This document shows, in pieces, positions 3,016 to 56,140 of a stretch of DNA of 64,000 nucleotides. The notes under the pieces were generated by a model that did no database searches, was not told where the DNA came from, and was given only the letters and a program-made list of their open reading frames with translations. The DNA comes from Cetorhinus maximus (taxonomy: Eukaryota), in NCBI RefSeq assembly GCF_964194155.1, contig NC_135916.1, positions 1,612,001 to 1,676,000 of the forward strand, in the 5' to 3' direction. Within the stretch, counting starts at the first letter, position 1; the number at the start of each line of letters is the position of its first letter. The position numbers and the translations under genes were made by a program.

Positions 3016-3687
3016 ATGACCGATACTGCAGCCGCCGAAACGGCTCCTCCAGCCGCTCCCGCCGCCCAGGTCAAGACTCCCAAGAAGAAGAAGAAGGCGG
3101 CTCCCCGGAGCAGTGCAGCCGGTCCCAAGCTGGGCGAGCAGATCCTCAAGGTTGTGGCGGATTGCAGCGATCGCAAGGGGATGTCGCTGCCCGCGATCAA
3201 GAAGGCGCTGCGCGGCAATGGGGTGGATGTGGAGAAACTGGGCTCCCAGATCAAGCAAAGCATCAAGAGGAATGTGAAGAATGGCTTGCTGGTTCAGGTC
3301 AAGGGCACGGGCGCCTCGGGCTCCTTCAAAGTCCCTAAGAACACAACCCCGGGGAAAGTGGGAAAGAAGGCGAAGGCAGCAGCTGGCAAGAAATCTCCAG
3401 TGAAGAAAGCGGCAGCCAAGAAGGTGACAGCAAAGAAAGCAGCGGCCAAGAAAACTCCAGTCAAGAAAGCAGCGGCCAAGAAATCCCCGGCCAAGAAATC
3501 CCCGGCCAAGAAAGCAACGGCCAAGAAATCCCCAGCGAAGAAAGCAGCGGCCAAGAAAACAGCCAAGAAGGCGGCAACTCCCAAAAAGCCGGTGAAGAAA
3601 GCAGCCCCCAAGAAAAAGTCTCCGGCCAAGAAGGTGACGGGCGTCAAAAAATTGGCGATAGGGAGGGCCAAGCCCAAAGGGAGATAA
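3016..3687 (+). CDS. H1: Linker histone H1 (223 aa), replication-dependent type
   Basis: Globular domain ending [13 protein letters not shown]-rich tail with S/TPxK motifs, intronless, followed by a histone stem-loop. Confidence 0.97.
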
Positions 3688-3744
3688 GCAAAGACAGCAA
3701 AGAAGGGAAAGATCCCGAGCAAATTGTAAACCTCTGAACCCAAA

Positions 3745-3785
3745 GGCTCTTTTCAGAGCCACCCACATTTCACATGAAAGAGCTG
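3745..3785 (+). terminator. Histone 3' stem-loop and HDE of H1
   Basis: GGCTCTTTTCAGAGCC at 3745-3760, then ACCCA, then purine-rich GAAAGAGCTG at 3776-3785. Confidence 0.97.
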
Positions 3786-4434
3786 ATCCCCTGATCATTT
3801 GATCCCTGTCTCCGCGCTGGGAGCTGATTTCAGGTGGAAATGTTTTATTTTCCAGTAAATCCAGTATTCCCGCTGACTGACTGAAATGCGCTTCACCCGC
3901 ACTTCCACTCCCTCCCCCAACTCCGACACTCATTCCTGCAATAACACACATCGATAACCTTTCCGATTAGTATCCGGGGTGTGTCCGAGAGCAGTTAATG
4001 TTTATCTTCCTTTCTATATTCAAATATTCAGGGTGGGAGTCTGCAATAGAGAAACCAGGTGTAAAGGAAACTCCTCACAGCTGACACCCAAACTCATTAT
4101 TTCCTCTCATTCGGTTGGGAGATGTTGGCTAAATTTCCAATCACCCTGGGAGGGGAGATGTAGGTGGGGATAAAATTGGAGCTGGGGTTGAAATCGAAGC
4201 AGAAATTGACTCGTATGGAAAGTTTATTATTGAGGCGGAAATGAGACGGACAAGACGATGTTTAATAGATTCGAGTTGCTAATTAGCTGCTTCATGATAT
4301 TCAAGTGTGTAAGTTCTGTTCAAAGCGTCTGTTCACTTCCCTTTAGAATTGGACAAAATACAATTCTGTTTCAGGCAGGCAGGAGGAGGAGCTGGTTTAC
4401 CAAAGACGTTGTTCTGTCTGTCACTCAGTCTCTC

Positions 4435-4497
4435 CCGCCCCGCCTCTCTCTCTCTCTCTCTCCCTTCCTCAGTCAGGTCGGGGCGGGTTGTATAAAA
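4435..4497 (+). promoter_or_regulatory. Histone H4 promoter
   Basis: CCGCCC boxes, a (CT)n tract, TCAGGTC H4-site-II-like element, GGGCGG, and TATAAAA at 4491-4497. Confidence 0.7.
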
Positions 4498-4544
4498 GCG
4501 GAACGTGAAGCAGCTCCCCACTCATTCAGCAGTGATTTGACTGA

Positions 4545-4865
<321 letters not shown>

Positions 4866-4898
4866 ACAAATCGACCTGACTCTGTAACAAAACCCAAA

Positions 4899-4914
4899 GG
4901 CTCTTCTAAGAGCC
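4899..4914 (+). terminator. Histone 3' stem-loop of H4
   Basis: GGCTCTTCTAAGAGCC preceded by CCAAA, with a GAGAGC HDE-like element downstream. Confidence 0.95.
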
Positions 4915-5106
4915 GCCCACAACCTCACATTGAGAGCATTGACCTCAGATCGGTAGAGGGAATCTAGTTCTATGAATACACAGCTTTGCCATCAGTGAAT
5001 TTTCCATTCACAATATAATCGTCAGTCAAACAAGTTTCATGGAATAATTTAGTTCGGTTTTCAGGATTTCGCTTCCCAGCTGAGGAACACGACAGATTCC
5101 AAAATT

Positions 5107-5166
5107 ACCCCGAGAACCACAAAGGCTCTTTTAAGAGCCACCAAGTCGGTCAGAGAAAGAGCTGCG
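5107..5166 (+). pseudogene. Orphan H3-type 3' end (stem-loop and HDE) with no CDS
   Basis: GGCTCTTTTAAGAGCC at 5124-5139 in the same context as the H3 3' end at 41296-41335. HDE GAAAGAGCTG follows. No upstream H3 ORF. Confidence 0.85.
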
Positions 5167-5546
5167 ATCTCTTGTTAAAAACTCCAGCACCTAAAACCCT
5201 CAAAGCTACAATTTATTTTCTTTCCTTTTGATTACCCGGTTCCCTCCCTCTGCTGCATTTGGGGTTATGAGGTGATTCCGTTTATATTTGTTTGTAATTT
5301 TACATCATTTAGTTGGAAATGGGATGAGTTAATTATTCAAAGAACATTTCCCTGAACATTGGCAATTGGTCATATATAGATGCAGCACAGACTCCTCATG
5401 TCTGGAAAAGGCAACAGCACCAGCGTCTCGTTGTAACCAGCGCTTTCACAGATCGCATTAGAAATATAAAGTCATTCCGAATCGATAGGGATGTTATCGC
5501 ACATACGGATAGACAACAGGTCGCCCCTTTCACTGATCAAGTGAGT

Positions 5547-5562
5547 GGCTCTGAAAAGAGCC
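5547..5562 (-). terminator. Histone 3' stem-loop of H2A
   Basis: Reverse complement reads GGCTCTTTTCAGAGCC, 30 nt after the H2A stop. Confidence 0.95.
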
Positions 5563-5592
5563 TTTGGGTTCTCAGTTTAAAGAATAGTCGCT

Positions 5593-6036
<444 letters not shown>

Positions 6037-6039
6037 TCA

Positions 6040-6250
6040 GTTCTCTTATACCCTCAGGAGGAATGGTGGTGCGCTCAGAGCTGATTGGTCAATTATATTA
6101 TAGCTCATAATATTCTTCATGTTACCAATCAGATTTCTGCCTGACTCACCAATGCGGGCAAGCAACGTATGAAGTCGGAAGTTAAGGGCGCCAAATCATC
6201 AGTTAAACAAACGATTATATATTTCAAACTGGAAAAGTCCGCCAAAAAAT
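6040..6250. promoter_or_regulatory. H2A promoter with a divergent (bidirectional-type) CCAAT arrangement
   Basis: Minus strand: TATAAG ~6046-6051 and ATTGG ~6084. Plus strand: CCAAT ~6125 and ~6149, CGGAAGT, E2F-like GGCGCCAAA, TATATA 6216-6221. Confidence 0.65.
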
Positions 6251-6311
6251 TAATCCAAGGAAATATCGCACAGAAATCGTCTTAGCTAAACAAAGGACAA
6301 TTCCTTTACAA

Positions 6312-6371
6312 ATGGATGTGGTGTACGCTCTGAAACGCCAGGGCCGCACTCTCTATGGATTCGGCGGCTGA
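6312..6371 (+). other. 5'-truncated H4 copy forming an intact 19-codon [22 protein letters not shown] (H4 85-103); pseudogene fragment or micro-gene
   Basis: Identical to 38795-38854. Homology to H4 begins exactly at the ATG. The H4 3' flank continues to ~6755. Confidence 0.9.
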
Positions 6372-6404
6372 ACAAATCGACCCGACTCTATAACAAAACC
6401 CAAA

Positions 6405-6443
6405 GGCTCTTCTAAGAGCCGCCCACAACCTCACATCGAGAGC
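6405..6443 (+). terminator. Histone stem-loop and HDE-like element of the truncated H4
   Basis: GGCTCTTCTAAGAGCC at 6405-6420 and GAGAGC at 6438-6443. Confidence 0.93.
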
Positions 6444-8160
6444 AAGTGACCTCAGAGCCGGAGAGGGAAAGCGAGATGTAGTTTTATATAAACACAGCGT
6501 TTCCATCTGCGCATTCTCCATTCACAAAACTATCGTGAGTCACACAAGGTTTCATGGTTTAATTTAGTTCGGTTTTCAGGAATTCACTTCCTTTCTTCCT
6601 CTCGAAGCTCAACTCCAAGCTTAGCTGACAGCTCCCAAACTAACACCGAGTCCACAAGATAAAGGCCATCATTTATTATAATATGATCAGGAGGAGCTAT
6701 TTTGAGACACAACATTCTCGCTTCTTCGCACTATTTTCACCCTGTCTTTTTTTCATTACAAACTGAATCAAACAGATATGACATACATAACATGAGTTCC
6801 TGAGTCTCATTCACAAAGACTTTGGCGGAGTTGCAGACTGAAGGCTACACCTTAGTTCACACAAAACCAATGAATGAAACCTGTCTTTGATAAATGCAAA
6901 GTTTCATGTTTAAATGTGCATCAGAGCCGGGAAACAGTAATAGATTAATTTCTTGCAGAAAATCGCCGTTAAATTTAACCCAGTCAGTACCAAACTATTA
7001 AAAGATAGGCCTCCCTTATTGTACTATATCATATTTAATTGCAAGTACCACACTCGCTTTTAAAATCAGGAATCCATTCGTGTTTAAACTCGGACCTTTT
7101 TACAGTCCTAACAGCCGGCGGAATTTCACGTTTACCGAATGCTGCGGTTAAGCAATATCGGCCTGAATGTACAAGTGTGATATTATTTTAAAAATAATAA
7201 AATTATATTATAATATTGTATCCAGATTGCAGGTTATTAATTCACTCCAATTTGAAGTGGTTCCGAATGAGTATTTATCTTGTTGCACGACTCGTGTTCG
7301 GTCTGCAGATGGAGCCAGGTCACAATAACTTGCACCTTATCGTTTCTGAACACACGTCGAGAAGCAACGGGCCTGATGCTGCTCTTGGAACTTGCCGAGC
7401 TCGCCTCCCGCCCCCCGTTAAAGAGGCAATGGTAGTGGCAAACTCACCGCCCTCCATACTGATCGGAACAAGCTGTTATATTCTGCACTTGCTGTTTTCT
7501 GCAATGGGATACTGACTTTAGCTCTGAACCTCTCCGTCACTGCAATTCATTTATGCATTTTATTCTATAGCTGTCAGGGCCTGGAAGTGACTGTGAGGTG
7601 GACTTTGCTTCTGCTGCCATCAGCTTTTGACAAGCTGTAAAAATGTTAGATTCATTCCGTGTGTATCAGTCTCTGGTGCTACACACGAAAGGTGTTATCC
7701 TTCAGCATGTGTCAGTTTGTGGTACTGTGTATGACTGCAGGATTAATACTCTAAATGTCATTTTTGTCAACCTTGCGGTGTAGAATTCATTTCGTTTCAC
7801 AATTTTTGTTTAGGAATGAGAAATTGTGTATTTCATTATGTCCTGTCGCTATCCGTGTACTGTGATCGAGCTAATTTTGCACTAAGCAGTAATCTTGTAT
7901 TATAGGTGGATTTAATTGTACCTCCGTGTATCGCTAAGTATCTCTTATGTAGTCACGAGTGGGATTAATTCTATGCCCTGGTGCAATCAGTGAGAGTGAA
8001 TTGCATCTGAATCTGTCAATATCTGGAAATAAATGTGAGGTTCAAAGAGATACTGATTGATTCAACAACTTTGAGTGAGAGTTGTTTTGTGTTCGACAAT
8101 CTGTGGCATGTTATGTGACTGTGGGTTTCCTGTGTCTTTTTGACTGTTTTTCCTTTTTTT

Positions 8161-36994: not shown

Positions 36995-37651
36995 ATGACC
37001 GATACTGCAGCCGCCGAAACGGCTCCTCCAGCCGCTCCCGCCGCCCAGGTCAAGACTCCCAAGAAGAAGAAGAAGGCGGCTCCCCGGAGCAGTGCAGCCG
37101 GTCCCAAGCTGGGCGAGCAGATCCTCAAGGTGGTGGCGGATTGCAGCGATCGCAAGGGGATGTCGCTGCCCGCGATCAAGAAGGCGCTGCGCGGCAAAGG
37201 GCTGGATGTGGAGAAACTGGGCTCCCAGATCAAGCAAAGCATCAAGAGGAATGTGAAGAATGGCTTCCTGGTTCAGGTCAAGGGCACGGGCGCCTCGGGC
37301 TCCTTCAAAGTCCCTAAGAACACAACCCCGGGGAAAGTGGGAAAGAAGGCGAAGGTAGCAGCTGGCAAGAAATCTCCAGTGAAGAAAGCGGCAGCCAAGA
37401 AGGTGACAGCAAAGAAAGCAGCGGCCAAGAAGACTCCAGTCAAGAAAGCAACGGCCAAGAAATCCCCAGCGAAGAAAGCAGCGGCCAAGAAATCCCCAGC
37501 GAAGAAAGCAGCGGCCAAGAAAACAGCCAAGAAGGCGGCAACTCCCAAAAAGCCGGTGAAAAAAGCAGCCCCCAAGAAAAAGTCTCCGGCCAAGAAGGTG
37601 ACGGGCGTCAAAAAAGTGGCGATAGGGAGGGCCAAGCCCAAAGGGAGATAA
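36995..37651 (+). CDS. H1: Linker histone H1 (218 aa)
   Basis: Paralog of 3016-3687. The true ATG is at 36995; the ORF-track extension to 36914 runs through the promoter. Confidence 0.97.
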   Translation: MTDTAAAETAPPAAPAAQVKTPKKKKKAAPRSSAAGPKLGEQILKVVADCSDRKGMSLPAIKKALRGKGLDVEKLGSQIKQSIKRNVKNGFLVQVKGTGASGSFKVPKNTTPGKVGKKAKVAAGKKSPVKKAAAKKVTAKKAAAKKTPVKKATAKKSPAKKAAAKKSPAKKAAAKKTAKKAATPKKPVKKAAPKKKSPAKKVTGVKKVAIGRAKPKGR

Positions 37652-37708
37652 GCAAAGACAGGAAAGAAGGGAAACATCCCGAGCAAATTGTAAACCTCTG
37701 AACCCAAA

Positions 37709-37749
37709 GGCTCTTTTCAGAGCCACCCACATTTCACATGAAAGAGCTG
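37709..37749 (+). terminator. Histone stem-loop and HDE of H1 copy 2
   Basis: GGCTCTTTTCAGAGCC at 37709-37724, followed by GAAAGAGCTG. Confidence 0.97.
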
Positions 37750-38533
37750 ATCCCCTGATCATTTGATCCCTGTCTCCGCGCTGGGAGCGGTTTTTAGATG
37801 GAAATGTTTCTTTATCCTTCCACTTAAATCCTATTTTCCCGCCCTCTCACTGACACACTCTCCACCCGTCCCCTCCCGCACTGTGCAATAAGACACAGGG
37901 ATATCCTTACAGCTCCCTAACCGGGATGTGTCCCAGTGCATTCAATGTTTATCTTTTCTTTATTCACATTTGCAGGGTGAGAGTCTGCAATGGAGTGAGC
38001 ATCGCTCAAAATTCCGCCTCACAACTAAGGCCCATACCTGTTGTTTCTCTAATTCTGTTGGAAGAGATGTTAGGGAATTTCTCAATCCCTTTTGGCAGCC
38101 TGGAGGGGAGGGTTCGGGGGATAGTCTAGAGTTGTGTTGGTATAGAATAGGAGAGGGATTGAAATAGATGCAAACATTTGACTCTTAAGTGCAGTATCGA
38201 GGGGGGAATATTACTGAGAAGATTGGATTTAATACCTACGATTTTCAAAATAGCTGGTTTATGATGTTGAAATATTTCAGTTACGTTTAAAGATTTCTGT
38301 TCAGCTTTCTTCATAATTTGATAAATAAATGTATTTCGGGCAGGCAGGAGGAGGGGCTGTCTGACAAGAGACATTGCCCTGACTGTCATTCACGCTGTCT
38401 CGCCCCGCCTCTCACACACACACACACACACACTCTCTCTCTGTAATTCTCCCTTTCTCAGTCAGGTCGGGGCGGGCTGTATAAAAGCGGAACGTGAAGC
38501 CGCTGCCCACTCATTCAGCACCGATTTGACTGA

Positions 38534-38854
<321 letters not shown>

Positions 38855-38887
38855 ACAAATCGACCCGACTCTCTAACAAAACCCAAA

Positions 38888-38903
38888 GGCTCTTCTAAGA
38901 GCC
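38888..38903 (+). terminator. Histone stem-loop of H4 copy 2
   Basis: GGCTCTTCTAAGAGCC. Confidence 0.95.
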
Positions 38904-39429
38904 GCCCACAACCTCACATTGAGAGCAGTGACCTTCGAGACGGAAAGCGAGATGTAGTTTTATAAAAACAGCTTTTTCACCTGCGCATTCTCCATTCGCT
39001 ATACTATAGTGAGTTACACAAGGTTTCATGGTTTATTTTCGTTCGGTTTTCAGGAATTCGCTTCCTTTCAATCTCCAGAAACCCGATTCCCAGCCTGGCT
39101 GAGGAACACGACAGATTCCAAACTAACACCGAGTTCACAAGATAAAGGCCATCATTTATTACACTTTGATCAGGAGTAACTATTTTGAGACACATTATTT
39201 TCGCTTCTTCGCACTATTTTCAACCCTGCCTTTTTATTCTTCGCTTTCTCTTCCTGAGTCGTTGAAACACGACAGGACCTGGGAGGTATCTGTAGATGAG
39301 CTTTATGTGGATCAGCCTGTATCCATGCAGCATGTTGACTGGATCCAGGAAGCACGATATTTAAGAGCTTTATTCTGGCCTGTTTCAGAGCGATCAATAT
39401 AATAATGCGAATTTAAACGGGAATGTAAG

Positions 39430-40460
39430 GCAAATCTCAGCAGGTCTGGCAGCCCTGGCGGAGAAGAGCACAGCTGACGTTTCGGGTCCTCATGACCCTT
39501 CAACAGAACTGAGTAATATTAGGAGAGGGGTGAAATATAAGCTGGTTTAAGGTGGGGGTGGGGGGAGAGAATTTGAAGGTGGGGTGGTTGTAGGGACAAG
39601 GAAGCAGTGATAGGAGCAGATAATCAAAAGATGTCACAGACAAAAGAAAAAAGAGGTGTTGAAGGTGATGATATTATCTAAACGAATGTGCTAATTAAGA
39701 ATGGATGGCAGGACACTCAAGGCACAGCTCTAGTGGGGGTGGGGTGGAAAGACTAACAGGGCATAAAAGGTATAAATTTAAAAATAATGGAAATAGGTGG
39801 GAAAAGAAAAATCTATATAAATTAATGGAAAAAACAAAAGGGAGGGGGATGAAACGGGAAAGGGGGTGGGGATGGAGGAGGGAGTTCAAGATCTAAAGTT
39901 GTTGAATTCAATATTCAGTCCGGAAGGCTGTAAAGTGCCTAGTCGGAAGATGAGGTGCTGTTCCTCCAGTTTGCGTTGGGCTTCACCTGAACAATGCAGC
40001 AAGCCAAGGACGGACATGTGGGCAAGAGAGCAGGGTGGAGTGTTAAAATGACAAGCGACAGGGAGGTTTGGGTCTTTCTTGCGGACAGACCGCAGGTGTT
40101 CTGCAAAGCGGTCGCCCAGTTTACGTTTGGTCTCTCCAATGTAGAGGAGACCGCATTTGGAGCAACGAATGCAGTAGACTAAGTTAGGGGAAATGCAAGT
40201 GAAACGCTGCTTCACTTGAAAGGAGTGTTTGGGCTCTTGGACGGTGAGGAGAGAGGAAGGGAAGGGGCAGGTGTTGCATCTTTTGCGTGGACATGGGGCG
40301 GTGCCATAGGTGGGGGTTGAGGAGGAGGGGAAGGTGGAGGGGTGGACCAGGGTGTCCCGGAGGGAACGATCCCTACGGAATGCCACAAAGGGGGTTGAAG
40401 GGAAGATGTGTTTGGTGGTGGCATCATGCTGGAGTTGGCGGAAATGGCGGGGGAATGATG
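39430..40460 (-). mobile_element. 5'-truncated Penelope-like retroelement: GIY-YIG endonuclease (ORF 39886-40386) and 3' pLTR
   Basis: C..RC.TC linker, NLVYCIRCSKCGLLYIGETKRKLGDRFAEH, ..E..LIFRLGTLQPSGLN. Hammerhead-like motif at the 3' end. Confidence 0.92.
39470..39510 (-). ncRNA. Minimal hammerhead ribozyme-like motif in the Penelope pLTR
   Basis: Minus strand reads AGTT-CTGTTGA-A-GGGTC(atgag)GACCC-GAAAC-GTC-AGCT, with a GUC cleavage triplet. The core has U in place of A6. Confidence 0.65.
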
Positions 40461-40646
40461 CCTCCGGCCAGCAATCGATCAGGGGATGAAAGAATTTAAT
40501 CTGCGTTCAAAAGCAGGAAGTCGGAGCTGTTACCGAAATGGGGCTCGCAAACATTGAGACCTTGTGATATTTGTCGCATTGATATTTATTTGAACTGCCT
40601 TCAAACTAGGTTTCTTTTAATTTCAGTTACTCGTCCCTCTGAAATT

Positions 40647-40798
40647 GGCGGGCATTTTGAAATTGATGAACTGTCAGTTTCTGCTCCACCAATCAGGGCC
40701 CAGAAATCCATGCAGCCCGCTGCTCTTTTCAAATTTCTGGGCGGGATTGCGCTGCATCCAATCAGGACAGGAGGGAGGTGACGGACATGTCTTAAATA
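40647..40798 (+). promoter_or_regulatory. H3 promoter: CDE/CHR-like tandem, two CCAAT boxes, TATA-like element
   Basis: GGCGG-gcat-TTTGAA at 40647-40661; CCAAT at 40689 and 40758; TTAAATA at 40792-40798. Confidence 0.7.
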
Positions 40799-40799
40799 G

Positions 40800-41267
<468 letters not shown>

Positions 41268-41309
41268 ACTCACCCTGCCCGACACTAGACTTACACCGAG
41301 AACCACAAA

Positions 41310-41350
41310 GGCTCTTTTAAGAGCCACCAAGTCGGTCAAAGAAGGAGCTG
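41310..41350 (+). terminator. Histone stem-loop and HDE of H3
   Basis: GGCTCTTTTAAGAGCC at 41310-41325, followed by GAAGGAGCTG. Confidence 0.95.
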
Positions 41351-42103
41351 CGATCTCTTAACTACACCAGCACTTTAGCATCTCAGGCCTACAATTTATT
41401 TTCCTCACTTTGTCACCGGGTAACTGTCCTTTGCTTCAATCACTCGGTGTTTCAGATCATTTGAGATCATTTTCATAAGGCAAATATTTTAATAATAAAG
41501 GCACTTTTTCGCGAATTCTGGAGACTGGATATAAATAGTTGCAGCACATACTACTAATGTCCGTAAGATGTAACAGTGCTAGCAGGATGCGTCTCACTCT
41601 AACCCACCCTTTCAGATATCATCAGAAATTACGAAGCGATAGGGATGTTCACACATGCACTAAAACCCGGATTCAGCTTCAAATGCCCCAAAGAGCCACC
41701 GAGTCGGTCAGAGAAAGAGCTGCGATCTCTTGTTAAACAATCTAGCTCCTAAAACCCTCGGGCCTACAATTTATTTAAGTCCTTTTGTTCATCCGGTCTC
41801 TCCCTCTGCTGCATTTGGGGATATGGGGTGATTCCATTTATAGTTCTTTAGCTATTTCACGTCATTGAATTAGAAATGGAATGAATTAATTATTCAATGA
41901 ATGTTTCCCTGAACATTGTCAGTTGGTCATATGTAGATGCAGCACAGACTCCTGGTGTCTGGAAAAGGCAACAGCGCCAGCGTCTCGTTGTAACCAGCGC
42001 TTTCACAGATCGCATTAGAAATATAATGTCATTCCGAATCGATAGGGATGTTATCGCGCATCCGGATAGACAACAGGTCGCCCCTTTCACTGATTAAGTG
42101 AGT

Positions 42104-42119
42104 GGCTCTGAAAAGAGCC
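42104..42119 (-). terminator. Histone stem-loop of H2A copy 2
   Basis: Reverse complement reads GGCTCTTTTCAGAGCC. Confidence 0.95.
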
Positions 42120-42149
42120 TTTGGGTTCTCAGTTTAAAGAATGGTCGCT

Positions 42150-42593
<444 letters not shown>

Positions 42594-43760: not shown

Positions 43761-43940
43761 GAGGACACCAACCTGTGTGCCATCCACGCCAAGCGAGTGA
43801 CCATCATGCCCAAGGACAGCTGGCCGGCCACATCCGCGGGGAGTGCGCCTAGACTGACCCTACCCGACTCTAGACTTACACCGACAACCACAAAGGCTCT
43901 TTTACGAGCCACCAAGTCGGTCAGAGAAAGGGCTGCGATC
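43761..43940 (+). pseudogene. H3 3' fragment pseudogene
   Basis: [19 protein letters not shown] followed by a 4-nt deletion frameshift. Stem-loop is mutated to GGCTCTTTTACGAGCC at 43895-43910. Confidence 0.92.
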
Positions 43941-44067: not shown

Positions 44068-45295
44068 ACACTCTCACCCCGCCCCCCTCTCTATCCACCA
44101 CTTCATACTCTCTCCCCCTCACACTTTCTTAGCATGTCACACTTTCTACCCCCACTCTCTTACTCCTCTCACACTCCCTATCTCCTCTCACTCTCTTGCA
44201 CTCCCACGCTCTCACATTCACACTCTCCCCTTCTCACTCATTACCCACTCTTCCTGGCTACAACATCACATTCTCTCCACCCTCACATTCTCCCCATCAC
44301 GACCTCTCCACCTCACTCTCTCTACCCCTTCACACGTTCTTCCCTTCACATGCTCTCCCCATCATATTCCCTACCACCTCACACTCCAAATCCCTTCGCA
44401 ATCTGAACCCCCTCACACTCTCTTTGCTGCCAACACTCTCTAACCCCTCTCATTCTCTCCTGCTCACATTCTTTCCGCCTCACACTCTCTCCTGCTCACT
44501 CTTTATGTCCTCACAATGTCTACCCCACTCTCACTCTCTGCCCTTCAATCCCTCTAACACCCACCTTCTCTCCCCCAATACTCTGTCCTCCTCACTCATT
44601 CTATGCCCTCACACTCTTTCCACCTCTATCACTTTATACCCCACATGGTATACCCCCTGACAATCTCTATTCAGTCACACCCTCACTTTCAACCCCCTCA
44701 CACTCTCACTCCCCTCAGAATCTCTCCCCCTCACACAGCCACCCCTTCTTTCTCAACAATCTTACACACTTTCTCCCCTCACACTTTGTCCCTTGCTCAC
44801 CCTCTCTCCACCTCAGGATCTCTCACCCCCTCACACTCTTCTCCCCGCACTCTTTCCATCACACACTCCCTCACCCTCACACTCTCTTCCCCCTCACTGT
44901 CTCTACAACCTCACCTCACACCTCATTCCCCCCTCACTCTCTCTTATGCCTGAAACTGCTCCAGCTCTGTGCTCTCTACCCTTTCAAACATTCTCCCCCT
45001 CAGACCCTGTAACCCTTTCACTTTGTACCCTTCACTCTCTTCCCCCCTCAAACTCTCTAACCCATCACACTCTCCCCCTCATGCTCTCTCCCCTCACATT
45101 CTCTTGAACTGCACACTATCTACACCCTCACTCGCTGCCCCCTCACACTCTCTCCATGTCACAATCTCCTGCCCCTCACACACTTACCCCTCACTCTCTC
45201 CCCCTCAAACTCTACACCACTAATACTTTCTACCCCTCACACTCTCAACTCCCTCAGACTGTGTCTCCCTTTCACACATTCTCCTCCTCACATCA
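44068..45295 (+). repeat. Degenerate C/T/A-rich minisatellite (unit ~CCCCTCACACTCTCT)
   Basis: Plus strand is almost devoid of G. Further tracts at ~46050-46470, 48470-49490, 50460-51470, 52572-53610 and 56145-56650. Confidence 0.88.
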
Positions 45296-45302
45296 ATTAA
45301 CC

Positions 45303-46048
45303 CAATGAACGGCATGACACTAGGAAGTTCTGAGGAACAAAGGGACCTTGGCGTGTGTGTCCATGGAACTCTGAAGGAGGAGGGGCATATTAGTGGGGTG
45401 GTGAAAAAGGCATATGGGACAATTGCCTTTATCAATCGAGGCATAGATTACAAAAGTGGGAGGTCATGTTGGAGTTGTATAGAACCTTGGTGAGGCCACA
45501 GCTGGAGTGCTGGGTGCAGTTCTGGTCGCCACATTAAAGGAAGGATGTGAATGCACTGGAGCGGATGCAGAGAAGGTTCACCAGGATGTTGCCTGGAATG
45601 AAACATTTAAGTTATGAAGACAGGTTGGATAGACTTGGGTATTTAATTGGAGCAGAGAAGACTGAGGGGCGACCTGATCGAGGTGTACAAGATTATGAGG
45701 AGCATGGACAGGGAGGATAGGGAGCAGCTGTTCCCCTTAGTTGAGGGGTCAGTCACAAGGGGGCATAAGTTCAAGGTGAGGGGGAGGAGGTTTAGAGGGG
45801 ATGTGAGAAAAAACTTTTTTTACCCAGAGGGTGGTGACGGTCTGGAATGCGCTGCCTGGGAGGGTGGTGGAGGCGGGTTGCCTCACATCCTTTAAAAAGT
45901 ACCTGGATGAGCACTTGGCACGTCATAACATTCAAGGCTTTGGGCCATGTGCTGGTAAAAGGAATTAGGTAGCTAGGTCAGGTGTTTCTCATGTGTCGGC
46001 GCTGACACGATGTGCCGAAGGCCCTCTTCTGCAGTGTGTGATTCTGTG
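45303..46048 (+). mobile_element. CR1 3' fragment
   Basis: EQRRLRGDLIEVYKIM motif; tail gtgtgattctgtg. Confidence 0.92.
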
Positions 46049-46472
46049 AACCCCTCACGCTGTATTGCTCACAATCTATTCCCCTTAAATCTCTCTCCCT
46101 CACATTTCCTTCCCCTTCACTCTCTATGCCCTCACACTGTCTATCGTACTCCCACTCTCTGCTCCTCATAGACACTAAATCTCTCACTCTCTCTCCCTAT
46201 CACACTCTCTACACCATCATACTAGTTGCCCCCTCAACACTCTCCACATCACAATCTGTCACTCGTGACACTCCCCCGTGCCTGATACTCTCTCCCCTTC
46301 ACACACTCTCCCCCTCACTCACTCTACACCCTCACACCTTCAACACTCTCAAACTTGCTGCGCCTTCAAAGTCTCTCTACATCACAATCTCTCCCATCCC
46401 TCTCCACTCCCTCACGTTTTCTCCGCCTCACACTCTCTCCCCTGCTCTCTGCCTACCATGTGCTCTCACTCA

Positions 46473-48468
46473 ATTCAAAGAATGCATGGGTGAACAGCAA
46501 CAATTGTTTATTCCTGTCTGGCACAAAAGTGAAACAAGAAAGGTGGCTAAACCATGGCTTACAAGGGAAATTAGAGATAGTATTAGATGCAAGGAAGAGG
46601 CATACAAATTGGCCAGAAAAAAACAACAGACCTGAGGATTGGGAGCAGTTTAGAATTCAGCAAAGGAGGACCAAGGGATTGATTAAGAAGGGGAAAATAG
46701 AGTATGAGAGTAAGCTTGCAGGGAACATAAAAACTGACTGTAAAAGGTTCTATAGGTATGTGAAGAGAAAAAGATTGGTGAAGACAAATATACAGACAGA
46801 AAGAGGGGAATTTATAAAGGGGAACAAAGAAATGGCTGACCAACTAAATACATACTTTGGTCCTGTCTTCACAAAGAAGGATACTAATAATATACCAGAA
46901 ATGTTGGAGAACACAGGGTTTAATGAGGGGGAGGAACTGAAATAAATCAGTATTAGTAGGGAAATGGTGTTGGGAAATTGAAAGGATTGAAGGCCGATTA
47001 ATCCCCGGGGCCTGATAATCTACATCCCAGAGTATTTATGGAAGTGGCCCTAGACATAGTGGATGCAATAGTGGTCATCTTTTGAGGCTCAATAGAATCT
47101 GGAACAGTTCCTACAGATTGGAGAGTAGCAAATGTAACCCCACTATTTAAAAAGGGAGGTAGAGAGAAAACAGGGAATTATAGACCAGTCAGCCTGACGT
47201 CAGTAGTGGGGAAAATTCTAGAGTCATATAAAAGATTTAATAGCTGCGCACGTGCAAAACAGTGGCAGAATCGGACAGAGTCAGCATGGATTTACGAAAG
47301 GGAAATCATGCTTGACAAATCTACTGGAATTTTTTGAGGATGTAACTAGTAGAGTTGATGAGGAGGAGCCAGTGGATGTGGTTTATTTGGACTTTCAGAA
47401 GGCTTTTGACAAAGTTCCACATAAGAGATTGGTGTGTAAAATTAAAGCATTTGGGATTGGGGGTAGTGTATTGAAATGGATAGAAAACTGGTTGGCAGAC
47501 AGGAAACAAAGAATAGGTAAAAACGTGTCTTTTTCCAAATGGCAGGCAGTGACTAGTGGGGTACTGCAGGGATCGGTGCTAGGACCCCAGTTATTCACAA
47601 TATATATTAATGATTTAGATGAGGAAGCTAAATGTAATATCTGGAAATTGCAGATAACACAAAGTTGGGTGGGAGGGTGAGCTGTGAGGAGGATGCAGAG
47701 ATGCTTCAGTGTGATTTGGACAAGCTGAGTGAGTGGGCAAATGCATGGCAGATGCAGTATATTGTGGATCAATGTGAGGTTATCCATTTTGGTAGTGAAA
47801 ACAGGAAGGTAGATTATTATCTGGATGGCTATAAATTGAGAGTGGGGAAAGTACAACGAGACCTGGGTGTCCTTGTACACCAGTCGCTGAACATAAGCAT
47901 GCAGGTGCAGCAGGCGGTAAAGAAGGCAAATGGTATGTTGGCCTTCATAGCCAGAGGATTCAAGTACAGGAACAGGGATGTCTTGCTGCAATTGTATAGG
48001 GCCTTGGTGAGACCTGGGATATAATGTACAGTTTTGGTCTCCTTATCTGAGGAAGGGTGTAGTTGCTATAGAAGGAGGGCAGCGGGTCTCATAGAAACAT
48101 ATATTAAATTCAAACAGGACTAGACAGGGTGGATACAGGAAGGACGTTCCCGATGTTCGGGGAGTCCAGAACCATGGGTCACAATCTGAGGATATGGGGT
48201 AGCCCATTTAGGACTGAGATGAGGAGAAATTTCTTCACCCAGTGAGTGGTGAGCCTGTGGGATTCGTTACCACAGAAAGTAGTTGAGACCAAAACATTGT
48301 ATGTTTTCAAGAAGGAGTTAGATATAGCTGTTGTGGCGAAAGGGATCAAAGGATATGGGGAGAAAGCGGGAGCAGGCTATTGAGTTGGATGATCATCCAT
48401 GAACATAATGATTGGCGGAGCAGGCTCGAAGGGCCGAATGGCCTACTCCTGCTCCTAGTTTCTATGTT
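46473..48468 (+). mobile_element. CR1 LINE ORF2 fragment (tether, RT, 3'UTR)
   Basis: QHGFTKGKSCLTNLLEFFE, DFQKAFDKV and GVLQGSVLGP motifs; 3' end ctcctagtttctatg. Confidence 0.93.
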
Positions 48469-51400
48469 GCTAACTCTATCCCTTCCTACCCTCTTGCCCA
48501 CACACTGTCTCACACCTCTCTCTCACGCTCTCTCACTCTGTACACCTCTAACACTTTCTACCTCCAGGACTCTTTGCTCTTTAACACTCTCTGTCCCCTT
48601 TCACTCTCTTCTGCTCACTCTCTCACACTCACACTCTCTCCCCCTCTCATTTGCTACCCCCTTTCAGGCTTGTCATCTAGACACTCTCTCCCCAGTCACA
48701 CTCTCTCCCCCTCATCCTTTCTCCCCCTCACACTCTCTTCCCCTCTCACTCCCTTCACCCTCACACTCTCTTCCCCTTTCACTCCCTTCACAGTCACACA
48801 CTCTGCCTCTTCACACCCTCCCCCTCAGACTCTTGGCACCTTCAATACTTCCTGCTCGCACACTTTTTCCTGCCTCACATTCTCTACCCCCTTACACTCT
48901 CCTACTTTCACTCTCTCTCCCTCACACTCTCTCCACCTCTCACTCACTAAACCCTTTCACTCTCATCACCTTGACACTATCCACCCCCTCACACTGCCTC
49001 CCCCTCACACACTCTCCCTTTCACACTCTCTCCTCCACACACTCTGTCCCCCTCACACTCTGCCTCATGCACCCTCTACCCCTCTCACCACACATATCCT
49101 CAGACATTTTCACACTTGCACACTCACCCACACAATCTCTGCCCCTCACACTCAATGCCCCCTCACACTCACTTCCTCTTCACACTCAGGCTCCTCACAT
49201 TCACTCTGATTCACATTCTATGCCCCTCTTTTTCCCTTCTCGTTCACATTTTCTCCCCCTCACAATCCCCTCCCAGTCACACTCACTCTCTGATAATAAG
49301 CACAGTCCCTCACAATCTCTAACCCCTCAGTGTCTTTCCCTGCTTACAGTCTCTCCTGCTCACACTCTTTCCACCCTCACATCTTCCCCCTCACACTTTC
49401 TCCCTCTCTCTCTTAACTCCTTTACTCTTTCTCTCCCTCACACTCTCTTCCGCTTACACTCTCTCCCATGCTCACACTCTCCACCCCTAACATTCTGCCG
49501 GACAGTTTTATTCCCCCAGCAGTTTCTGTTTTCATTTCAGATTTCCCACATCCACAGTGTTTTATTTTATTTTTCATTGTACCCATAGAGCCTTAGTTCA
49601 GCAGGGAGATTATCCTTTGCCTGTTAGTTCATGGTAAATGATTGCTCAATTTAAATTAATTTATTGACACAGGATTACTGTGGCTTCACAGCAGGATGCA
49701 GAGATGCCTCAAGCTGAGTGAGTGGGCAAATGCAAGGCAGATGCAGTATAATGTGGATCAATGTGAGGTTATCCATTTTGGTAGTGAAAACAGGAAGGCA
49801 GATTATTATCTGAATGGCTATAAATTGAGAGAGGGGAATGTGCAACGAGACCTGGGTGTCCTTGTACACCAGTCGCTGAACATAAGCATGCAGGTGCAGC
49901 AGGCGGTAAAGAAGGCAAATGGTATGTTGGCCTTCATAGCCAGAGGATTCAAGTACAGGAACAGGGATGTCTTGCTGCAATTGTATAGGGCCTTGGTGAG
50001 ACCTGGGATATAATGTACAGTTTTGGTCTCCTTATCTGAGGAAGGGTGTAGTTGCTATAGAAGGAGGGCAGCGGGTCTCATAGAAACATATATTAAATTC
50101 TAACAGGACTAGACAGGGTAGATGCAGGAAGGACGTTCCCGATGTTCGGGGAGTCCAGAACCATGGGTCACAATCTGAGGATATGGGGTAGCCCATTTAG
50201 GACTGAGATGAGGAGAACTTTCTTCACCCAGAGAGTGGTGAGCCTGTGGGATTCGTTACCATAGAAAGTAGTTGAGACCAAAACATTGTATGTTTTCAAG
50301 AAGGAGTTAGATATAGCTCTTGGGGCGAAAGGGATCAAAGGATATGGGGAGAAAGCGGGAGCAGGCTATTGAGTTGGATGATCATCCATGAACATAATGA
50401 TTGGCGGAGCAGGCTCGAAGGGCCGAATGGCCTACTCCTGCTCCTAGTTTCTATGTTGCTAACTCTATCCCTTCCTACCCTCTTGCCCACACACTGTCTC
50501 ACACCTCTCTCTCCACCCACTCACGCTCTCTCACTCTGTACACCTCTAACACTTTCTACCTCCAGGACTCTTTGCTCTTTAACACTCTCTGTCCCCTTTC
50601 ACTCTCTTCTGCTCACTCTCTCACACTCACACTCTCTCCCCCTCTCATTTGCTACCCCCTTTCAGGCTTGTCATCTAGACACTCTCTCCCCAGTCACACT
50701 CTCTCCCCCTCATCCTTTCTCCCCCTCACACTCTCTTCCCCTCTCACTCCCTTCACCCTCACACTCTCTTCCCCTTTCACTCCCTTCACCGTCACACACT
50801 CTGCCTCTTCACACCCTCCCCCTCAGACTCTTGGCACCTTCAATACTTCCTGCTCACACACTTTTTCCTGCCTCACATTCTCTACCCCCTTACACTCTCC
50901 TACTTTCACTCTCTCTCCCTCACACTCTCGCCACCTCTCACTCACTAAACCCTTTCACTCTCATCACCTTGACACTCTCCACCCCCTCACACTGCCTCCC
51001 CCTCACACACTCTCCCTTTCACACTCTCTCCTCCACACACTCTGTCCCCCTCACACTCTGCCTCATGCACCCTCTACCCCTCTCACCACACACATCCTCA
51101 GACATTCTCACACTTGCACACTCACCCACACAATCTCTGCCCCTCACACTCAATGCCCCCTCACAGTCGCTTCCTCTTCACACTCAGGCTCCTCACATTC
51201 ACTCTGATTCACATTCTTTGCCCCTCTTTTTCCCTTCTCGTTCACATTTTCTCCCCCTCACAATCCCCTCCCAGTCACACTCACTCTCTGATAATAAGCA
51301 CAGTCCCTCACAATCTCTAACCCCTCAGTGTCTTTCCCTGCTTACAGTCTCTCCTGCTCACAGTCTTTCCACCCTCACATCATTTTCCCCCTCACACTTT

Positions 51401-54400
51401 CTCCCTCTCTCTCTTAACTCCTTCACTCTTTCTCTCCCTCACACCCTCTTCCGTTTACACTCTCCCATGCTCGCGCTATTCACCCCTTGTATTCTGCCGG
51501 ACAGTTTTATTCCCCCAGAAGTTTCTGTTTTCATTTCAGATTTCCTGCATCCACAGTGTTTACTTTTATTATTTCATTGTCCCCATAGAGTCTCGTTCGA
51601 GCAGGGAGATTATTCTTTGCCTGTTTCCTCATGGTAAATGACTGCTCAATTTAAACTATTTTATTGACACAGAATTACTGTGGCTTCAAAGCAGGATGCA
51701 GAGATGCTTCAATGTGATTTAGACAAGCTGAGTGAGTGGGCAAATGCATGGCAGATGCAGTATAATGTGGATCAATGTGAGGTTATCCATTTTGGTAGCA
51801 AAAAGAGAAAGGCAGATTATTATCTGATGACTATAAACTGAGAGAGGGGAATGTGCAACGAGACCTGGGTGTCCTTGTACACCAGTCGCTGAAGGTAAGC
51901 ATGCAGGTGCAGCAGGCGGTAAAGAAGGCAAATGGTATGTTGGCCTTCAAAGCGAGAGGATTCGAGTACAGGAGCAGGGATGTCTTGCTGAAATTGTACA
52001 GGGCCTTGGTGAGACCACACCTGGAATATTGTGAGCAGTTTTGGTCTTCTTATCTGAGGAAGGATGTTCTTGCTATAGAGGGTGTGCAGCAAAGGTTTAC
52101 CAGACTGATTCCTGGGATGGCGGGACTGACATGAGGAGAGATTGAGTCACTTAGGATTATATTCACTGGAGTTCAGAAGAATGAGGAGGGATCTCATAGA
52201 AACCTATAAAATTCTAACAGGACTAGACAGTGTAGATGCAGGAAGTATGTTCCCGATGGTGGGGGAGTCCAGAACCAGAGGTCACAGTCTGAGAATATGG
52301 GGTAGAACATTTAGGACAGAGATGAGGAGAAATTTCTTCACCCAGAAAGTGGTGAGCCTGTGGGATTCATTACCACAGAAAGTAGTTGAGACCAACACAC
52401 TGTATGTTTTCAAGAAGTAGTTAGATATAGCTCTTGGGGCAAATGGGATCAAAGGGTACGGGGAGAAATCGGGAGCAGGCAATTGAGTTGGATGATCAGC
52501 CATGATCATAATGAATGGTGGAGCAGGCTCGATGGGCCGAATGGCCTACTCCTGCTCCTAGTTTCTATGTTGCTAACTCTATCACTTCCTACCATCTCGC
52601 CCACATGCTCTGTCTCACACCTCTCCACCCAATCACACTCTCTCACTCTGTTCACCTCTAAACACTTTCTACCATCCAAACTCATTGCTCTTTAACATTC
52701 TCTGCCCCTTTTCACTCTCTTCTGCTCACTCTCTCCCACTCACACTCTCTCCCCCTCACACCCCTTTCAGCCTTATCACCCAGACACTCTCTCCCCAAAC
52801 ACACTCTCTCCCCCTCATACATTCTACCAATCACACTCTCTTCCCCTCTCACTCCCTTCACCCTCACACACTCTTCCCCTCTCACTCCCTTCACCCTCAC
52901 ACTCTCTTCCCCTCTCACTCCCTTCACCCTCATACACTCTGCCTCTTCACACCCTCCCCCTCAGACTCTTTGCACCTCTAATACTTCCTGCTTGCACACT
53001 TTTTCCTGACTCTCTACTGCCTCTTACACTCTCTTACTTTCACTCTGTCCACCTCACACTCTCTCCACCTCTCACTCACTAACCCCTTTCACTCTCATCA
53101 CCTTGACACTCTCCACCCCCTCAAACTGCCTCCTTTTCATATTCTCTCCTCCTCACACTCTCTACCCCCCTCACCACACACACACTCACACATTCTCTCC
53201 CTTGCACTCTCACCCCCTCAATCTCTCCCCCTCGCACTCTCCCCCTCACACTCAAAGCCCCCTCACAATTGCTTCCTCTTCACACTAACTCTACCCAGTC
53301 ACACTTAGGCTCCTCACATTCTCTCTGCCTCACATTCTATCCTCCTCTCTTTCCCTTCTCTTTCACATTTTCTCCCTCTCACAAAATCTTCCCAATCACA
53401 CTCTCTCCCTGATAATAATTTCAGCCCCTCATACTCTCTAACCCCTCAGTGTCTTTCCCTGCTTACAGTCTCTCCTCCTCACACTCTTTCCACCCTCACA
53501 TCATCTTCCCCCTCACACTTTCTCCCTCTCTCTCTTAACTCCTTCACTCTTTCTCTCCCTCACACTCTCTTCCGCTTACACTCTCTCCCATGCTCACACT
53601 CTCCGCCCCTAACATTCTGCCGGACAGTTTTGTTCCCCCAGCAGTTTCTGTTTTCATTTCAGATTTCCCACATCCACAGTGTTTACTTTTATTATTTCAT
53701 TGTACCCATAGAGCCTTAGTTCAGCAGGGAGATTATACTTTGCCTGTTAGTTCATGGTAAATGACTGCTCAATTTAAACTATTTTATTGACACAGGATTA
53801 CTGTGGCTTCACAGCAGGATGCAGAGATGCCTCAAGCTGAGTGAGTGGGCAAATGCATGGCAGATGCAGTATAATGTGGATCAATGTGAGGTTATCCATT
53901 TTGGTAGCAAAAACAGGAAGGCAAATTATTATCTGTATGGCTATAAATTGAGAGAGGGGAATGTGCAATGAGACCTGGGTGTTCTCGTACACCAGTCGCT
54001 GAAGGTAAGCATGCAGGTGCAGCAGGCGGTAAAGAAAGCAAATGGTATGTTGGCCTTCAAGGCCAGAGGATTCGAGTACAGGAACAGGGATGTCTTGCTG
54101 CAATTATACAGGGCCTTGGTGAGACCACACCTGGAATATTGTGTGCAGCTTTGGTCTCCTTATCTGAGGAAGGATGTTCTTGCTATAGAGGGAGTGCAGT
54201 GAAGGTTTACCAGACTGATTTCTGAGATGGCGGGACTGGCATATGAGGAGAGATTGAGTCGATTAGGATAATATTCACTGGAGTTCAGAAGAATCAGGGG
54301 GGATCTCATAGAAACCTTTAAAATTCTAACAGGACTATACAGGGTAGATGCAGGAAGGATGTTCACGATGTTGGGGCAGTCCAGAACCAGGGGTCACAGT

Positions 54401-54638
54401 CTGAGGATATGGGGCAGATCATTTAGTACAGAGGTGAGGAGAAATTTCTTCACCCAGAATGTGGTGAGCCTGTGGAATTTGTTACCACAGAAAGTAGTTG
54501 AGGCCAAAACATTATATGTTTTCAAGAAGGAGTTAGATATAGCTCTTGGAGCGAAAGGGATCAAAAGATATGGGGAGAAAGCGGGAGCAGGCTATTGAGT
54601 TGGATGATCAGCCATGATCATGATGAATGGCGGAGCAG
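47691..54638 (+). repeat. ~2.0-2.1 kb tandem array (CR1 3' end + minisatellite + spacer), about 3.4 units
   Basis: The unit start ggatgcagagatgc recurs at ~47691, 49694, 51694 and 53817. Confidence 0.9.
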
Positions 54639-56140
54639 TTTAGAATTCAGCAAAGGAGGAACAAGGGATTGATTAAGAAGGGGAAAATAATGAATGAGAG
54701 TAAGCTTGCAGGGAACATAAAAACTGATTGTAAAAGTTTCTATCGGTATGTGAAGAGAAAAAGATTGGTGAAGACAAATGTAGGTCCCTTACAGTCAGAA
54801 ACGGGGGAATTTATAATGGGGAACAAAGAAATGGCTGACCAACTAAATACATACTTTGGTTCTGTCTTCACAGAGGAGGACACAAATAACATACCAGAAA
54901 TATCTGGGAACACATGGTTTAGTGAGAGGGAGGAACTGAATTAAATCAGTATTAGTAGAGAAATGGTGCAGGGGAAATTGATGGGATTGAAGGCCGATAA
55001 ATCCCCGGGGCTTGATAATCTACATCCCAGAGTACTTAAGGAAGTGGCCCTAGAAATAGTGGATGCATTGGTGGTCATCTTCCGAGATTCTATAGACTCT
55101 GGAACAGTTCCTACAGATTGGAGGGTAGCTAATGTAACCCCACTATTTAAAAAGGGAGACAGAGAGAAAACAGGGAATTATAGACCAGTCAGCCTGACGT
55201 CGGTAGTGGGGAAAATTCTAGAGTCCATTATAAAAGAATTAATAGCTGAGCATGTGGAAAACAGTGGCAGAATCGGACAGAGTCAGCATGGATTTACGAA
55301 AGGGAAATCATGCTTGACAAATCTACTGGAATTTTTCGAAGATGTAACTAGTAGAGTTGATGAGGGGAGCCAGTGGATGTGGTTTATTTGGACTTTCAGA
55401 AGGCTTTCGATAAAGTCCCACATGAGAGATTGGTGTGTAAAATTAAAGCGTTTGGGACTGGGGGTAGTGCATTGAGATGGATAGAAAACTGGTTGGCAGA
55501 CAGGAAACAAAGAGTAGGAATAAACACGTCTTTTTCTGAATTGCAGGCAGTGACTAGTGGGGTCGGTGCTGGGATCCCAGTTATTCACAATATATATTAA
55601 TGATTTAGGTGAGGAAACTAAATGTAATATCTCCAAATTTGCAGATGACACAAAGCTGGGTGGGAGGGTGAGCTGTTAGGAGGATGCAGTGATGCTTCAG
55701 TGTGATTTGGAGAAGCTGAGTGAGTGGGCAAATGCATGGCAGATGCAGTATATTGTGGATCAATGTGACGTTATACATTTTCGTGGCAAAAACAGGAAGG
55801 CAGATTATTATCTGAATGGCTATAAATTGAGAGTCCAGAACCTGGGGTCACAATCTGAGGATATGGGGTAGATCGTTTAGGACTGAGATGAGGAGAAATT
55901 TTTTCACCCAGAGAGTGGTGAGCCTGTGGAATTCACTACCACAGAAAGTAGTTGAGACCAAAACATTGTATGTTTTCAAGAAAGAGTTAGATATAGCTCT
56001 TGGGGTGAAAGGGATCAAAGGTTATGGGGAGAAAGCGGGAGCAGGCTATTGAGTTGGATGATCAGCCATGATCATAATGAATGGTGGAGCAGGCTTGAAG
56101 GGCCGAATGGCCTACTCCTGCTCCTAGTTTCTATGTTTCT
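54632..56140 (+). mobile_element. CR1 ORF2 fragment (paralog of 46642-48468) with an internal deletion
   Basis: KSPGLDNLHPRVLKE, NYRPVSLTS and SKFADD motifs; deletion junction at ~55832. Confidence 0.92.

What the first reader, a model, noticed from the sequence alone, without database searches (positions are those of the whole stretch)
6216..6443. Truncated H4 starting exactly at Met85: candidate stand-alone pre-osteogenic growth peptide (OGP) micro-gene behind the H2A promoter
Seen: the H2A upstream region matches its paralog up to ...cctttacaaat (42870), then joins an H4 copy whose homology starts precisely at ATG 6312. This gives an intact [22 protein letters not shown], with an intact stem-loop and HDE. 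Upstream on the same strand are CCAAT boxes (~6125, ~6149) and TATATA (6216), with no other ATG between TATATA and 6312; position +4 is G. Established: in mammals pre-OGP is H4(85-103), made by alternative initiation at AUG85, and is processed to [18 protein letters not shown]2A promoters are also often bidirectional with H2B. Inference: a rearrangement (2-nt 'AT' microhomology) placed a pre-OGP-only ORF in the vacant H2B position. The ORF is unmutated, unlike the decayed H3 fragment at 43761, but it may simply be a recent neutral fragment.
Basis: partly seen in the sequence, partly recalled or inferred. Interest (0 to 1): 0.8.

Follow-up and report, generated by a model that had tools for sequence, protein, structure and literature searches.

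The report
Deletion-truncated histone H4 tail, likely pseudogene
In a large histone gene cluster, 3.5 kb is missing between an H2A gene and the H4 gene behind it, which leaves the last 19 codons of H4 (the same sequence as a mammalian bone-growth peptide precursor) next to the H2A promoter; it is likely an ordinary broken copy rather than a dedicated peptide gene, though its expression is untested.

Summary
The junction is in the assembly: H2A upstream DNA joins H4 at ATG 6312 over a 2-nt AT overlap, giving a 19-codon ORF with stem-loop. It occurs three times, inside 54-57-kb duplicated blocks 98-99% alike. Five intact units hold a full H4 about 3.5 kb behind H2A; the junction unit equals them minus 3,366-3,480 bp. 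No H2B sat there, and 0 of 30 H2B loci pair head-to-head with H2A. TATATA is in 29 of 33 local H2A upstream regions but 0 of 12 in a second cluster. The join weakens the start context (-3 G to C). An unmutated ORF is expected without selection (P 0.27-0.42). At least four other deletion junctions left intact histone 3' ends here. Against this reading: landing exactly on AUG85 is about a 1% chance over two H4 truncations. Read support and expression remain untested. Verdict: likely neutral H4 pseudogene fragment; functional pre-OGP gene about 4%.

The parts
6312..6371 (+). H4 codons 85-103 plus stop ([19 protein letters not shown]), identical to the tail found in 46 of 59 H4 copies of the cluster; start context -3 C, +4 G
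6312..6313 (+). deletion junction: 2-nt AT shared by the H2A upstream region and H4 codon 85; 3,480 bp missing against four intact units, 3,366 bp against the fifth
6405..6420 (+). histone 3' stem-loop, same as in the intact H4 genes
6436..6449 (+). purine-rich downstream element (HDE by position); T>C at 6437 and a 1-nt A insertion not seen in any of 53 full-length H4
6372..8100 (+). 3' flank collinear (94.5-97.3%) only with the five H4 copies that lie about 3.5 kb behind H2A; shows a DNA-level event, not a retrocopy
5986..6311 (-). H2A 5' UTR and promoter: CCAAT boxes (6084-6088 on -, 6125 and 6149 on +) and two E2F-like motifs (6188-6195, 6239-6246; label recalled), also present in H2A promoters of a second cluster
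6216..6221 (+). TATATA, 96 nt before the ATG (H4 63 nt, H3 65 nt); a local AT tract shared by H2A upstream copies with no gene behind them, absent from 12 of 12 H2A promoters of the second cluster
5593..5985 (-). intact H2A gene, 130 aa
5119..5164 (+). orphan H3 stem-loop: the same unit has also lost its whole H3 gene
4554..4865 (+). intact H4 gene of the same unit
3016..3687 (+). intact H1 gene of the same unit
43761..43852 (+). independent junction from the same H2A-upstream spacer into an H3 tail (nt 316 on), over a 2-nt GA microhomology; internal control

Best explanation
The junction unit matches the cluster's intact H2A(-)/H4(+) units minus 3,480 bp, so it likely arose by one deletion that was end-joined at a 2-nt AT overlap, was then likely copied passively with 55-kb blocks, and is likely a silent H4 pseudogene fragment. 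Shown: the missing stretch is spacer, the H4 promoter and H4 codons 1-84; three copies lie in collinear blocks; no H2B lies in the gap; other truncated histone ends occur nearby. Inferred: microhomology-mediated end joining or unequal exchange as the repair route; gene conversion among near-identical H4 copies as a reason the tail stays clean; little or no plus-strand transcription, because the upstream motifs belong to H2A.
For: 5 of 33 H2A upstream regions lead to a full H4 at 3,440-3,554 bp. The junction unit aligns to one of them as two abutting blocks, 97.8% and 96.7%, and its 1.8-kb 3' flank matches only those five. The three copies share 54-57-kb blocks at 98.4-99.1% and differ by 0.4-1.5% in the flank, so P(no change in 57 coding nt) is 0.27-0.42. 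Other junctions with intact 3' ends in the same 1.05 Mb: H4 from nt 138 (3 copies), H3 from nt 316 (1), H3 stem-loop only (3, this same unit), H1 3' end only (9). No second AUG85 junction: of 245 exact-pattern H4 tails, 4 lack C before the ATG (these 3 plus one full-length variant) and none has C without CC. The start context falls from -3 G to -3 C. 0 of 30 H2B loci are divergent with H2A. TATATA is not kept in the second cluster (0 of 12) and reads TTTTATAT in a contig of organism C. One contig of organism B appears to read ATGG at the left break in an undeleted allele, a possible 4-nt overlap (deduced from tables 3, 7 and 8). Pol theta end joining uses 2-6 bp microhomologies (10.1101/2019.12.20.882852, passages), although the enriched deletions there were under 30 bp.
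Against: A start exactly at AUG85 has only about 1% chance over the two H4 truncation events in the cluster. The three junction copies lack an ATG at offset 249 of the leader that all five intact parent units carry, although 11 of 26 non-junction copies also have an ATG-free leader. CCAAT boxes work in either orientation (established knowledge), so some plus-strand transcription is plausible. The stem-loop is intact. The left side cannot be tied to a specific parent, since the alignable common-type H2A upstream copies differ from it by only 4-14 of 328 nt.
Confidence: 0.8

Rival explanations
1. Accidental transcript: the H2A promoter fires weakly in the other direction, the RNA is cut at the stem-loop and yields some H4(85-103) peptide, but selection does not maintain it.
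For: CCAAT boxes, an AT tract, an ATG-free 96-nt leader, +4 G and an intact stem-loop are present. AUG85 is the first AUG after TATATA.
Against: The H2B-type core promoter motif is absent. The proposed start near 6245 falls on a motif kept in H2A promoters of both clusters. -3 is C. The downstream element has an insertion seen only in truncated copies.
Confidence: 0.13
2. Selected stand-alone pre-OGP micro-gene: the deletion put a pre-OGP-only ORF under a divergent histone promoter and is kept because it uncouples OGP supply from H4.
For: The ORF equals preOGP, H4(85-103), as defined in PMC5133884 (passages). The exact start is about a 1% event. Three copies have no change in the ORF. The leader lacks the ATG found in the parent units.
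Against: Any break between nt 207 and 253 gives the same ORF, and most would keep the better native start context, so exactness brings no advantage. The copies travelled in 55-kb blocks. Conservation is no better than neutral. It arose once in the genome. At least 219 H4 tails with native context already carry AUG85. The OGP work seen in the passages is from rat, mouse and human.
Confidence: 0.04
3. Assembly artefact: the junction is a mis-join in a repetitive cluster.
For: No bridging piece was listed in the 7 runs laid. In X2 and X13 the depth at 6298-6309 is fully explained by undeleted contigs.
Against: Three copies carry private substitutions and indels, one is inverted, and each lies in its own 55-kb block. 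13 flank sites are shared by the three and absent from all five parents. The runs may be other individuals or species, X2 was read to 62%, and a filter removes human-like records.
Confidence: 0.03

Closest known systems
Truncated histone pseudogenes and orphan 3' ends in replication-dependent histone clusters (birth-and-death turnover; recalled, no paper read on it)
   Same: Promoter and 5' coding part lost, stem-loop kept, several near-identical copies, many such remnants in one cluster.
   Different: The break falls exactly on the internal Met85 codon, so the remnant is a complete short ORF next to another gene's promoter.
preOGP / OGP, H4(85-103) and H4(90-103), made by alternative initiation at AUG85 of mammalian H4 mRNA (PMC5133884, PMC9154745, PMC4705651; passages seen)
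   Same: The encoded 19-mer ends in the 14-residue OGP sequence given in PMC5133884 and starts at AUG85.
   Different: Known preOGP comes from full-length H4 mRNA by leaky scanning, not from its own gene. No RNA, peptide or activity is shown here, and the work seen is mammalian.
Divergent H2A-H2B gene pairs with a shared promoter, as in amniotes (recalled)
   Same: The ORF starts 326 nt from the H2A ATG on the opposite strand, with CCAAT boxes between.
   Different: In this genome H2B and H2A are tandem on one strand or unlinked (0 of 30 divergent), and the H2B promoter motif is missing here.
Microhomology-mediated (Pol theta) end-joining deletions (10.1101/2019.12.20.882852; abstract and passages)
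   Same: 2-nt overlap at the join, with no inserted bases.
   Different: The enriched deletions in that paper were under 30 bp. A 2-nt overlap is also common by chance, so the pathway is not identified.

Membership tests
Truncated histone pseudogene | derived from a full-length gene by loss of promoter and coding sequence | tested here: met
   3,480-bp gap against intact units; lost part includes the H4 TATA and codons 1-84
Truncated histone pseudogene | no sequence constraint beyond neutral expectation | tested here: inconclusive
   0 changes seen, 0.9-1.3 expected, P 0.27-0.42; too young to tell
Truncated histone pseudogene | no functional product | not testable with these tools
   needs RNA and ribosome data
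preOGP source | encodes H4(85-103) from AUG85 | tested here: met
   ORF 6312-6371 against the definition in PMC5133884
preOGP source | transcribed and translated; processed to OGP; activity on skeletal cells | not testable with these tools
   no suitable RNA, Ribo-seq or peptide data available
Replication-dependent histone-type transcription unit | 3' stem-loop | tested here: met
   same 16-mer as intact H4 genes; folds; Rfam 24.4 bits against 26.6 for intact H4, both under the cut-off
Replication-dependent histone-type transcription unit | downstream element pairing with U7 snRNA | tested here: inconclusive
   AGAGC core kept; T>C and 1-nt insertion in 2 of 3 copies; U7 not found in the genome or controls, so pairing was not computed
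Replication-dependent histone-type transcription unit | own core promoter at histone-like spacing | tested here: not met
   TATATA at -96 against -63 (H4) and -65 (H3); not kept in 12 of 12 second-cluster H2A promoters
Divergent H2A-H2B pair position | H2B normally head-to-head with H2A in this genome | tested here: not met
   0 of 30 best H2B loci; 21 tandem, 9 without H2A within 1.5 kb
Divergent H2A-H2B pair position | H2B promoter motif (TCATTAGCA then TATA) facing the ORF | tested here: not met
   in 29 of 30 H2B loci, absent from 5986-6311
Processed (retro) copy | homology ends at the mRNA 3' end | tested here: not met
   1.8 kb of genomic 3' flank is shared with the parent units

The most novel reading that the evidence does not exclude
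A young de novo micro-gene: a deletion fused the last 19 codons of H4 and its 3' processing signals to the back of an H2A promoter, giving a natural stand-alone pre-OGP transcription unit (none found in my searches), now in three copies. It would make the H4 tail peptide without making H4.
Probability: 0.04. Interest if true: 0.7.

Novelty: new member of a known kind. Interest (0 to 1): 0.14.

Why it matters
As read here it matters little: it is one of at least five independent deletion remnants with intact 3' ends in one histone cluster, and a reminder that an intact stem-loop, a clean short ORF and three copies come free in such clusters. If it were expressed and selected it would matter. 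PMC9154745 (passage) says OGP cannot be knocked out apart from H4, so a natural gene for the peptide alone would separate the two and extend OGP biology outside mammals.

Tried and rejected
Expression: no RNA holder listed. The one possible RNA run of organism A (X24, 10.6 million letters) held a single H4-tail contig; this is not evidence either way.

Read support: 7 runs laid (X1, X23, X5, X6; X2, X23, X13, X24; X23 twice). No bridging piece was listed; 212 and 24 pieces were not shown. In X23, 17 of 18 laid reads ran on into unlike sequence, so at most one could bridge; with 7 reads on the left side, under one bridging read was expected. Inconclusive. Undeleted continuations of the H2A upstream region were seen in organisms A, B and C.

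U7 snRNA: the Rfam search rang neither in the genome nor in the 14 controls, so HDE pairing was not computed.

Other H4 tails without the native six upstream bases: 13 of the 23 outside this junction were fetched from the listed first 100 matches and all 13 were full-length point variants; one more was checked. Truncations a little upstream of codon 85 outside the 1.05-Mb region were not surveyed.

Retrocopy origin rejected (1.8 kb of genomic flank). Vacated H2B slot rejected.

Literature: 'preOGP' gave 1 paper. 'osteogenic growth peptide' with 'shark' gave 9 papers, none on OGP in sharks by title or abstract start. Searches listed no stand-alone preOGP gene. The H2A promoter/E2F search gave 0, so the E2F label is recalled. 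Smith et al. 2005 was not held. Earlier-findings look-ups near this place and by words were empty.

Full report
OBSERVATION. The window lies at C39:1612001-1676000 of a 3.99-Gb genome. It holds an H1-H4-H2A unit at 3016-5985 and an H1-H4-H3-H2A unit at 36995-42542. Upstream of the first H2A, homology to the paralog runs to 6313 and H4 homology begins at 6312, so the two share AT. The ORF 6312-6371, the CCAAT boxes, TATATA at 6216, the ATG-free leader and the stem-loop at 6405-6420 are as described.

COPIES. The 21-nt junction occurs 3 times in the genome, all on C39. The copies are about 99% alike over 3.3 kb and lie in collinear blocks of 54-57 kb at 98.4-99.1% identity, one of them inverted. 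They were likely copied with their blocks. Private changes in each copy, and 13 of 1,670 flank sites shared by the three and absent from all five parent units, argue against a mis-join. Direct read support was not obtained.

ORIGIN. I read 1.054 Mb around the window. It holds 53 full-length H4, 42 H1, 40 H3, 32 H2A, 3 H2B and 8 partial genes. In 5 of 33 H2A upstream regions a full H4 follows on the opposite strand at 3,440-3,554 bp. The fragment's 1.8-kb 3' flank is collinear only with these five. The junction unit aligns to one of them as two abutting blocks, with 3,480 bp missing (3,366 against one parent). The missing DNA is spacer (partly repeat-like by eye), the H4 promoter and codons 1-84. 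The genomic flank rules out a retrocopy. The left side cannot be tied to one parent, because the alignable common-type H2A upstream copies differ from it by only 4-14 of 328 nt, so unequal exchange between units fits as well as an internal deletion. A 2-nt overlap fits end joining (10.1101/2019.12.20.882852; abstract and passages) but is also common by chance. One contig of organism B matches through 6315 with all six of its differences lying elsewhere, which implies ATGG at the left break in an undeleted allele, a possible 4-nt overlap with H4 (deduced; one contig).

THE H2B-SLOT IDEA FAILS. No H2B lies in the deleted DNA. Among the 30 best H2B loci (of 150 scored), H2A lies downstream on the same strand in 21, is absent within 1.5 kb in 9 and is divergent in 0. 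29 of 30 carry TCATTAGCA followed by a TATA; 5986-6311 does not. At least one plus-strand CCAAT is in 12 of 12 H2A promoters from the second cluster (12 picked by hand from the 21) and the motif at 6239 is exact in 10 of 12, so these likely serve H2A; TATATA is in 0 of 12. Within this cluster a TATA-like tract is at the same place in 29 of 33 H2A upstream regions, 26 of which have no gene directly behind. It lies 96 nt before the ATG, against 63 for H4 and 65 for H3.

CONSERVATION SAYS NOTHING YET. Flank divergence among the three copies gives 0.87-1.31 expected substitutions in 57 coding nt, P(0) = 0.27-0.42. One copy has the common downstream element plus two bases matching other H4 types, which suggests gene conversion acts on the tail (inferred). 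The three H4 fragments starting at nt 138, which have lost their TATA and start, have only 1-2 changes in 175 nt, and 2 of 3 have a perfect tail. The decayed H3 fragment looks older: its 3' flank is about 90% like its best match over about 195 nt, against 98% for this fragment.

REMNANTS ARE COMMON HERE. Independent junctions that keep a histone 3' end: H4 from nt 253 (3 copies), H4 from nt 138 (3), H3 from nt 316 (1; it starts in the same spacer, over a 2-nt GA overlap), H3 stem-loop alone (3, in this very unit) and H1 3' end alone (9). The extra A in the downstream element is in 5 of 6 truncated H4 copies and 0 of 53 full-length ones. These come from only two events and may share the change by conversion, so it is a hint of relaxed constraint, no more. 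Genome-wide, 245 H4 tails match an exact pattern and 219 have the native upstream bases; only 4 lack C before the ATG, these three and one full-length variant. The AUG85 junction therefore arose once among the matches.

Counting all deletions from the spacer into H4, homology begins exactly at nt 253 in 0.4-0.6%, about 1% over the two H4 truncations in the cluster. That coincidence is real, and I do not explain it away beyond noting that the scan selects such cases from very many windows. But any break in nt 207-253 (11-16% per event, 21-29% over two) makes AUG85 the first H4-derived AUG, and most would keep the purine at -3, so selection has no reason to favour the exact spot. The junction copies also lack a leader ATG carried by all five parents, but so do 11 of 26 non-junction copies.

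COMPARISON. preOGP is H4(85-103), made from AUG85 of H4 mRNA and trimmed to OGP (PMC5133884, passages), by leaky scanning (PMC4705651, passages). OGP acts through CB2 in mouse and human cells, and cannot be knocked out apart from H4 (PMC9154745, abstract start and passages). The ORF here would encode that peptide, but nothing shows RNA, peptide or activity. Searches listed no stand-alone preOGP gene and no OGP study in sharks (listings only). Earlier AI notes call this genome a shark; I did not test this. No supplements were read.

VERDICT. Likely a young, neutral H4 pseudogene fragment made by one deletion and duplicated with its block (0.80); accidental weak expression 0.13; selected pre-OGP micro-gene 0.04; artefact 0.03. 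Interest 0.14.

Noticed in passing
G000:C39:900001-1954000: The cluster is almost without H2B (3 H2B against 53 H4, 40 H3, 42 H1, 32 H2A); most H2B genes found lie on contig C32.
   Followed up: partly
L134-L160 (C32, C450): H2B and H2A are tandem on one strand, not head-to-head; the H2B promoter has TCATTAGCA where the recalled vertebrate octamer would be.
   Followed up: partly
G000:C39:1011712, 1109303, 1206417: A second H4 5' truncation, from nt 138, in three copies, joined to sequence resembling the H4 upstream region; shares the extra A in the downstream element with two of the AUG85 copies.
   Followed up: yes
G000:C39:991572 and eight further places: Nine orphan H1 3' ends (3' UTR, stem-loop, downstream element) with no H1 coding sequence, about 800 nt before an H4.
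   Followed up: partly
window 5105-5164: The junction unit lost its H3 gene through a second join with about 8 nt of near-identity between the H4 and H3 3' flanks, leaving an orphan stem-loop that converges on H2A.
   Followed up: partly
G000:C39:1688630-1689004 (L060, L131): A lone 124-aa H2B, at most 91% like the other H2B hits, with a longer 3' UTR and an A run before its stem-loop; it lies near the point where the cluster's orientation flips.
   Followed up: no
L162-L173 (C32): Several full-length H4 copies share the same amino-acid-changing variants around codon 84 and in the tail (T to I in the OGP stretch), suggesting an amplified variant or decaying H4 subfamily.
   Followed up: no
G000:C39:1516362-1517212: An H2A with the first 36 nt and promoter repeated about 460 nt upstream, and another H2A (1471888) whose upstream region is displaced by about 1.6 kb; possible insertions at the start codon.
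   Followed up: no
window 44100-57000: Low-complexity CT-rich tracts alternating with LINE-like pieces at about 2-kb spacing.
   Followed up: no
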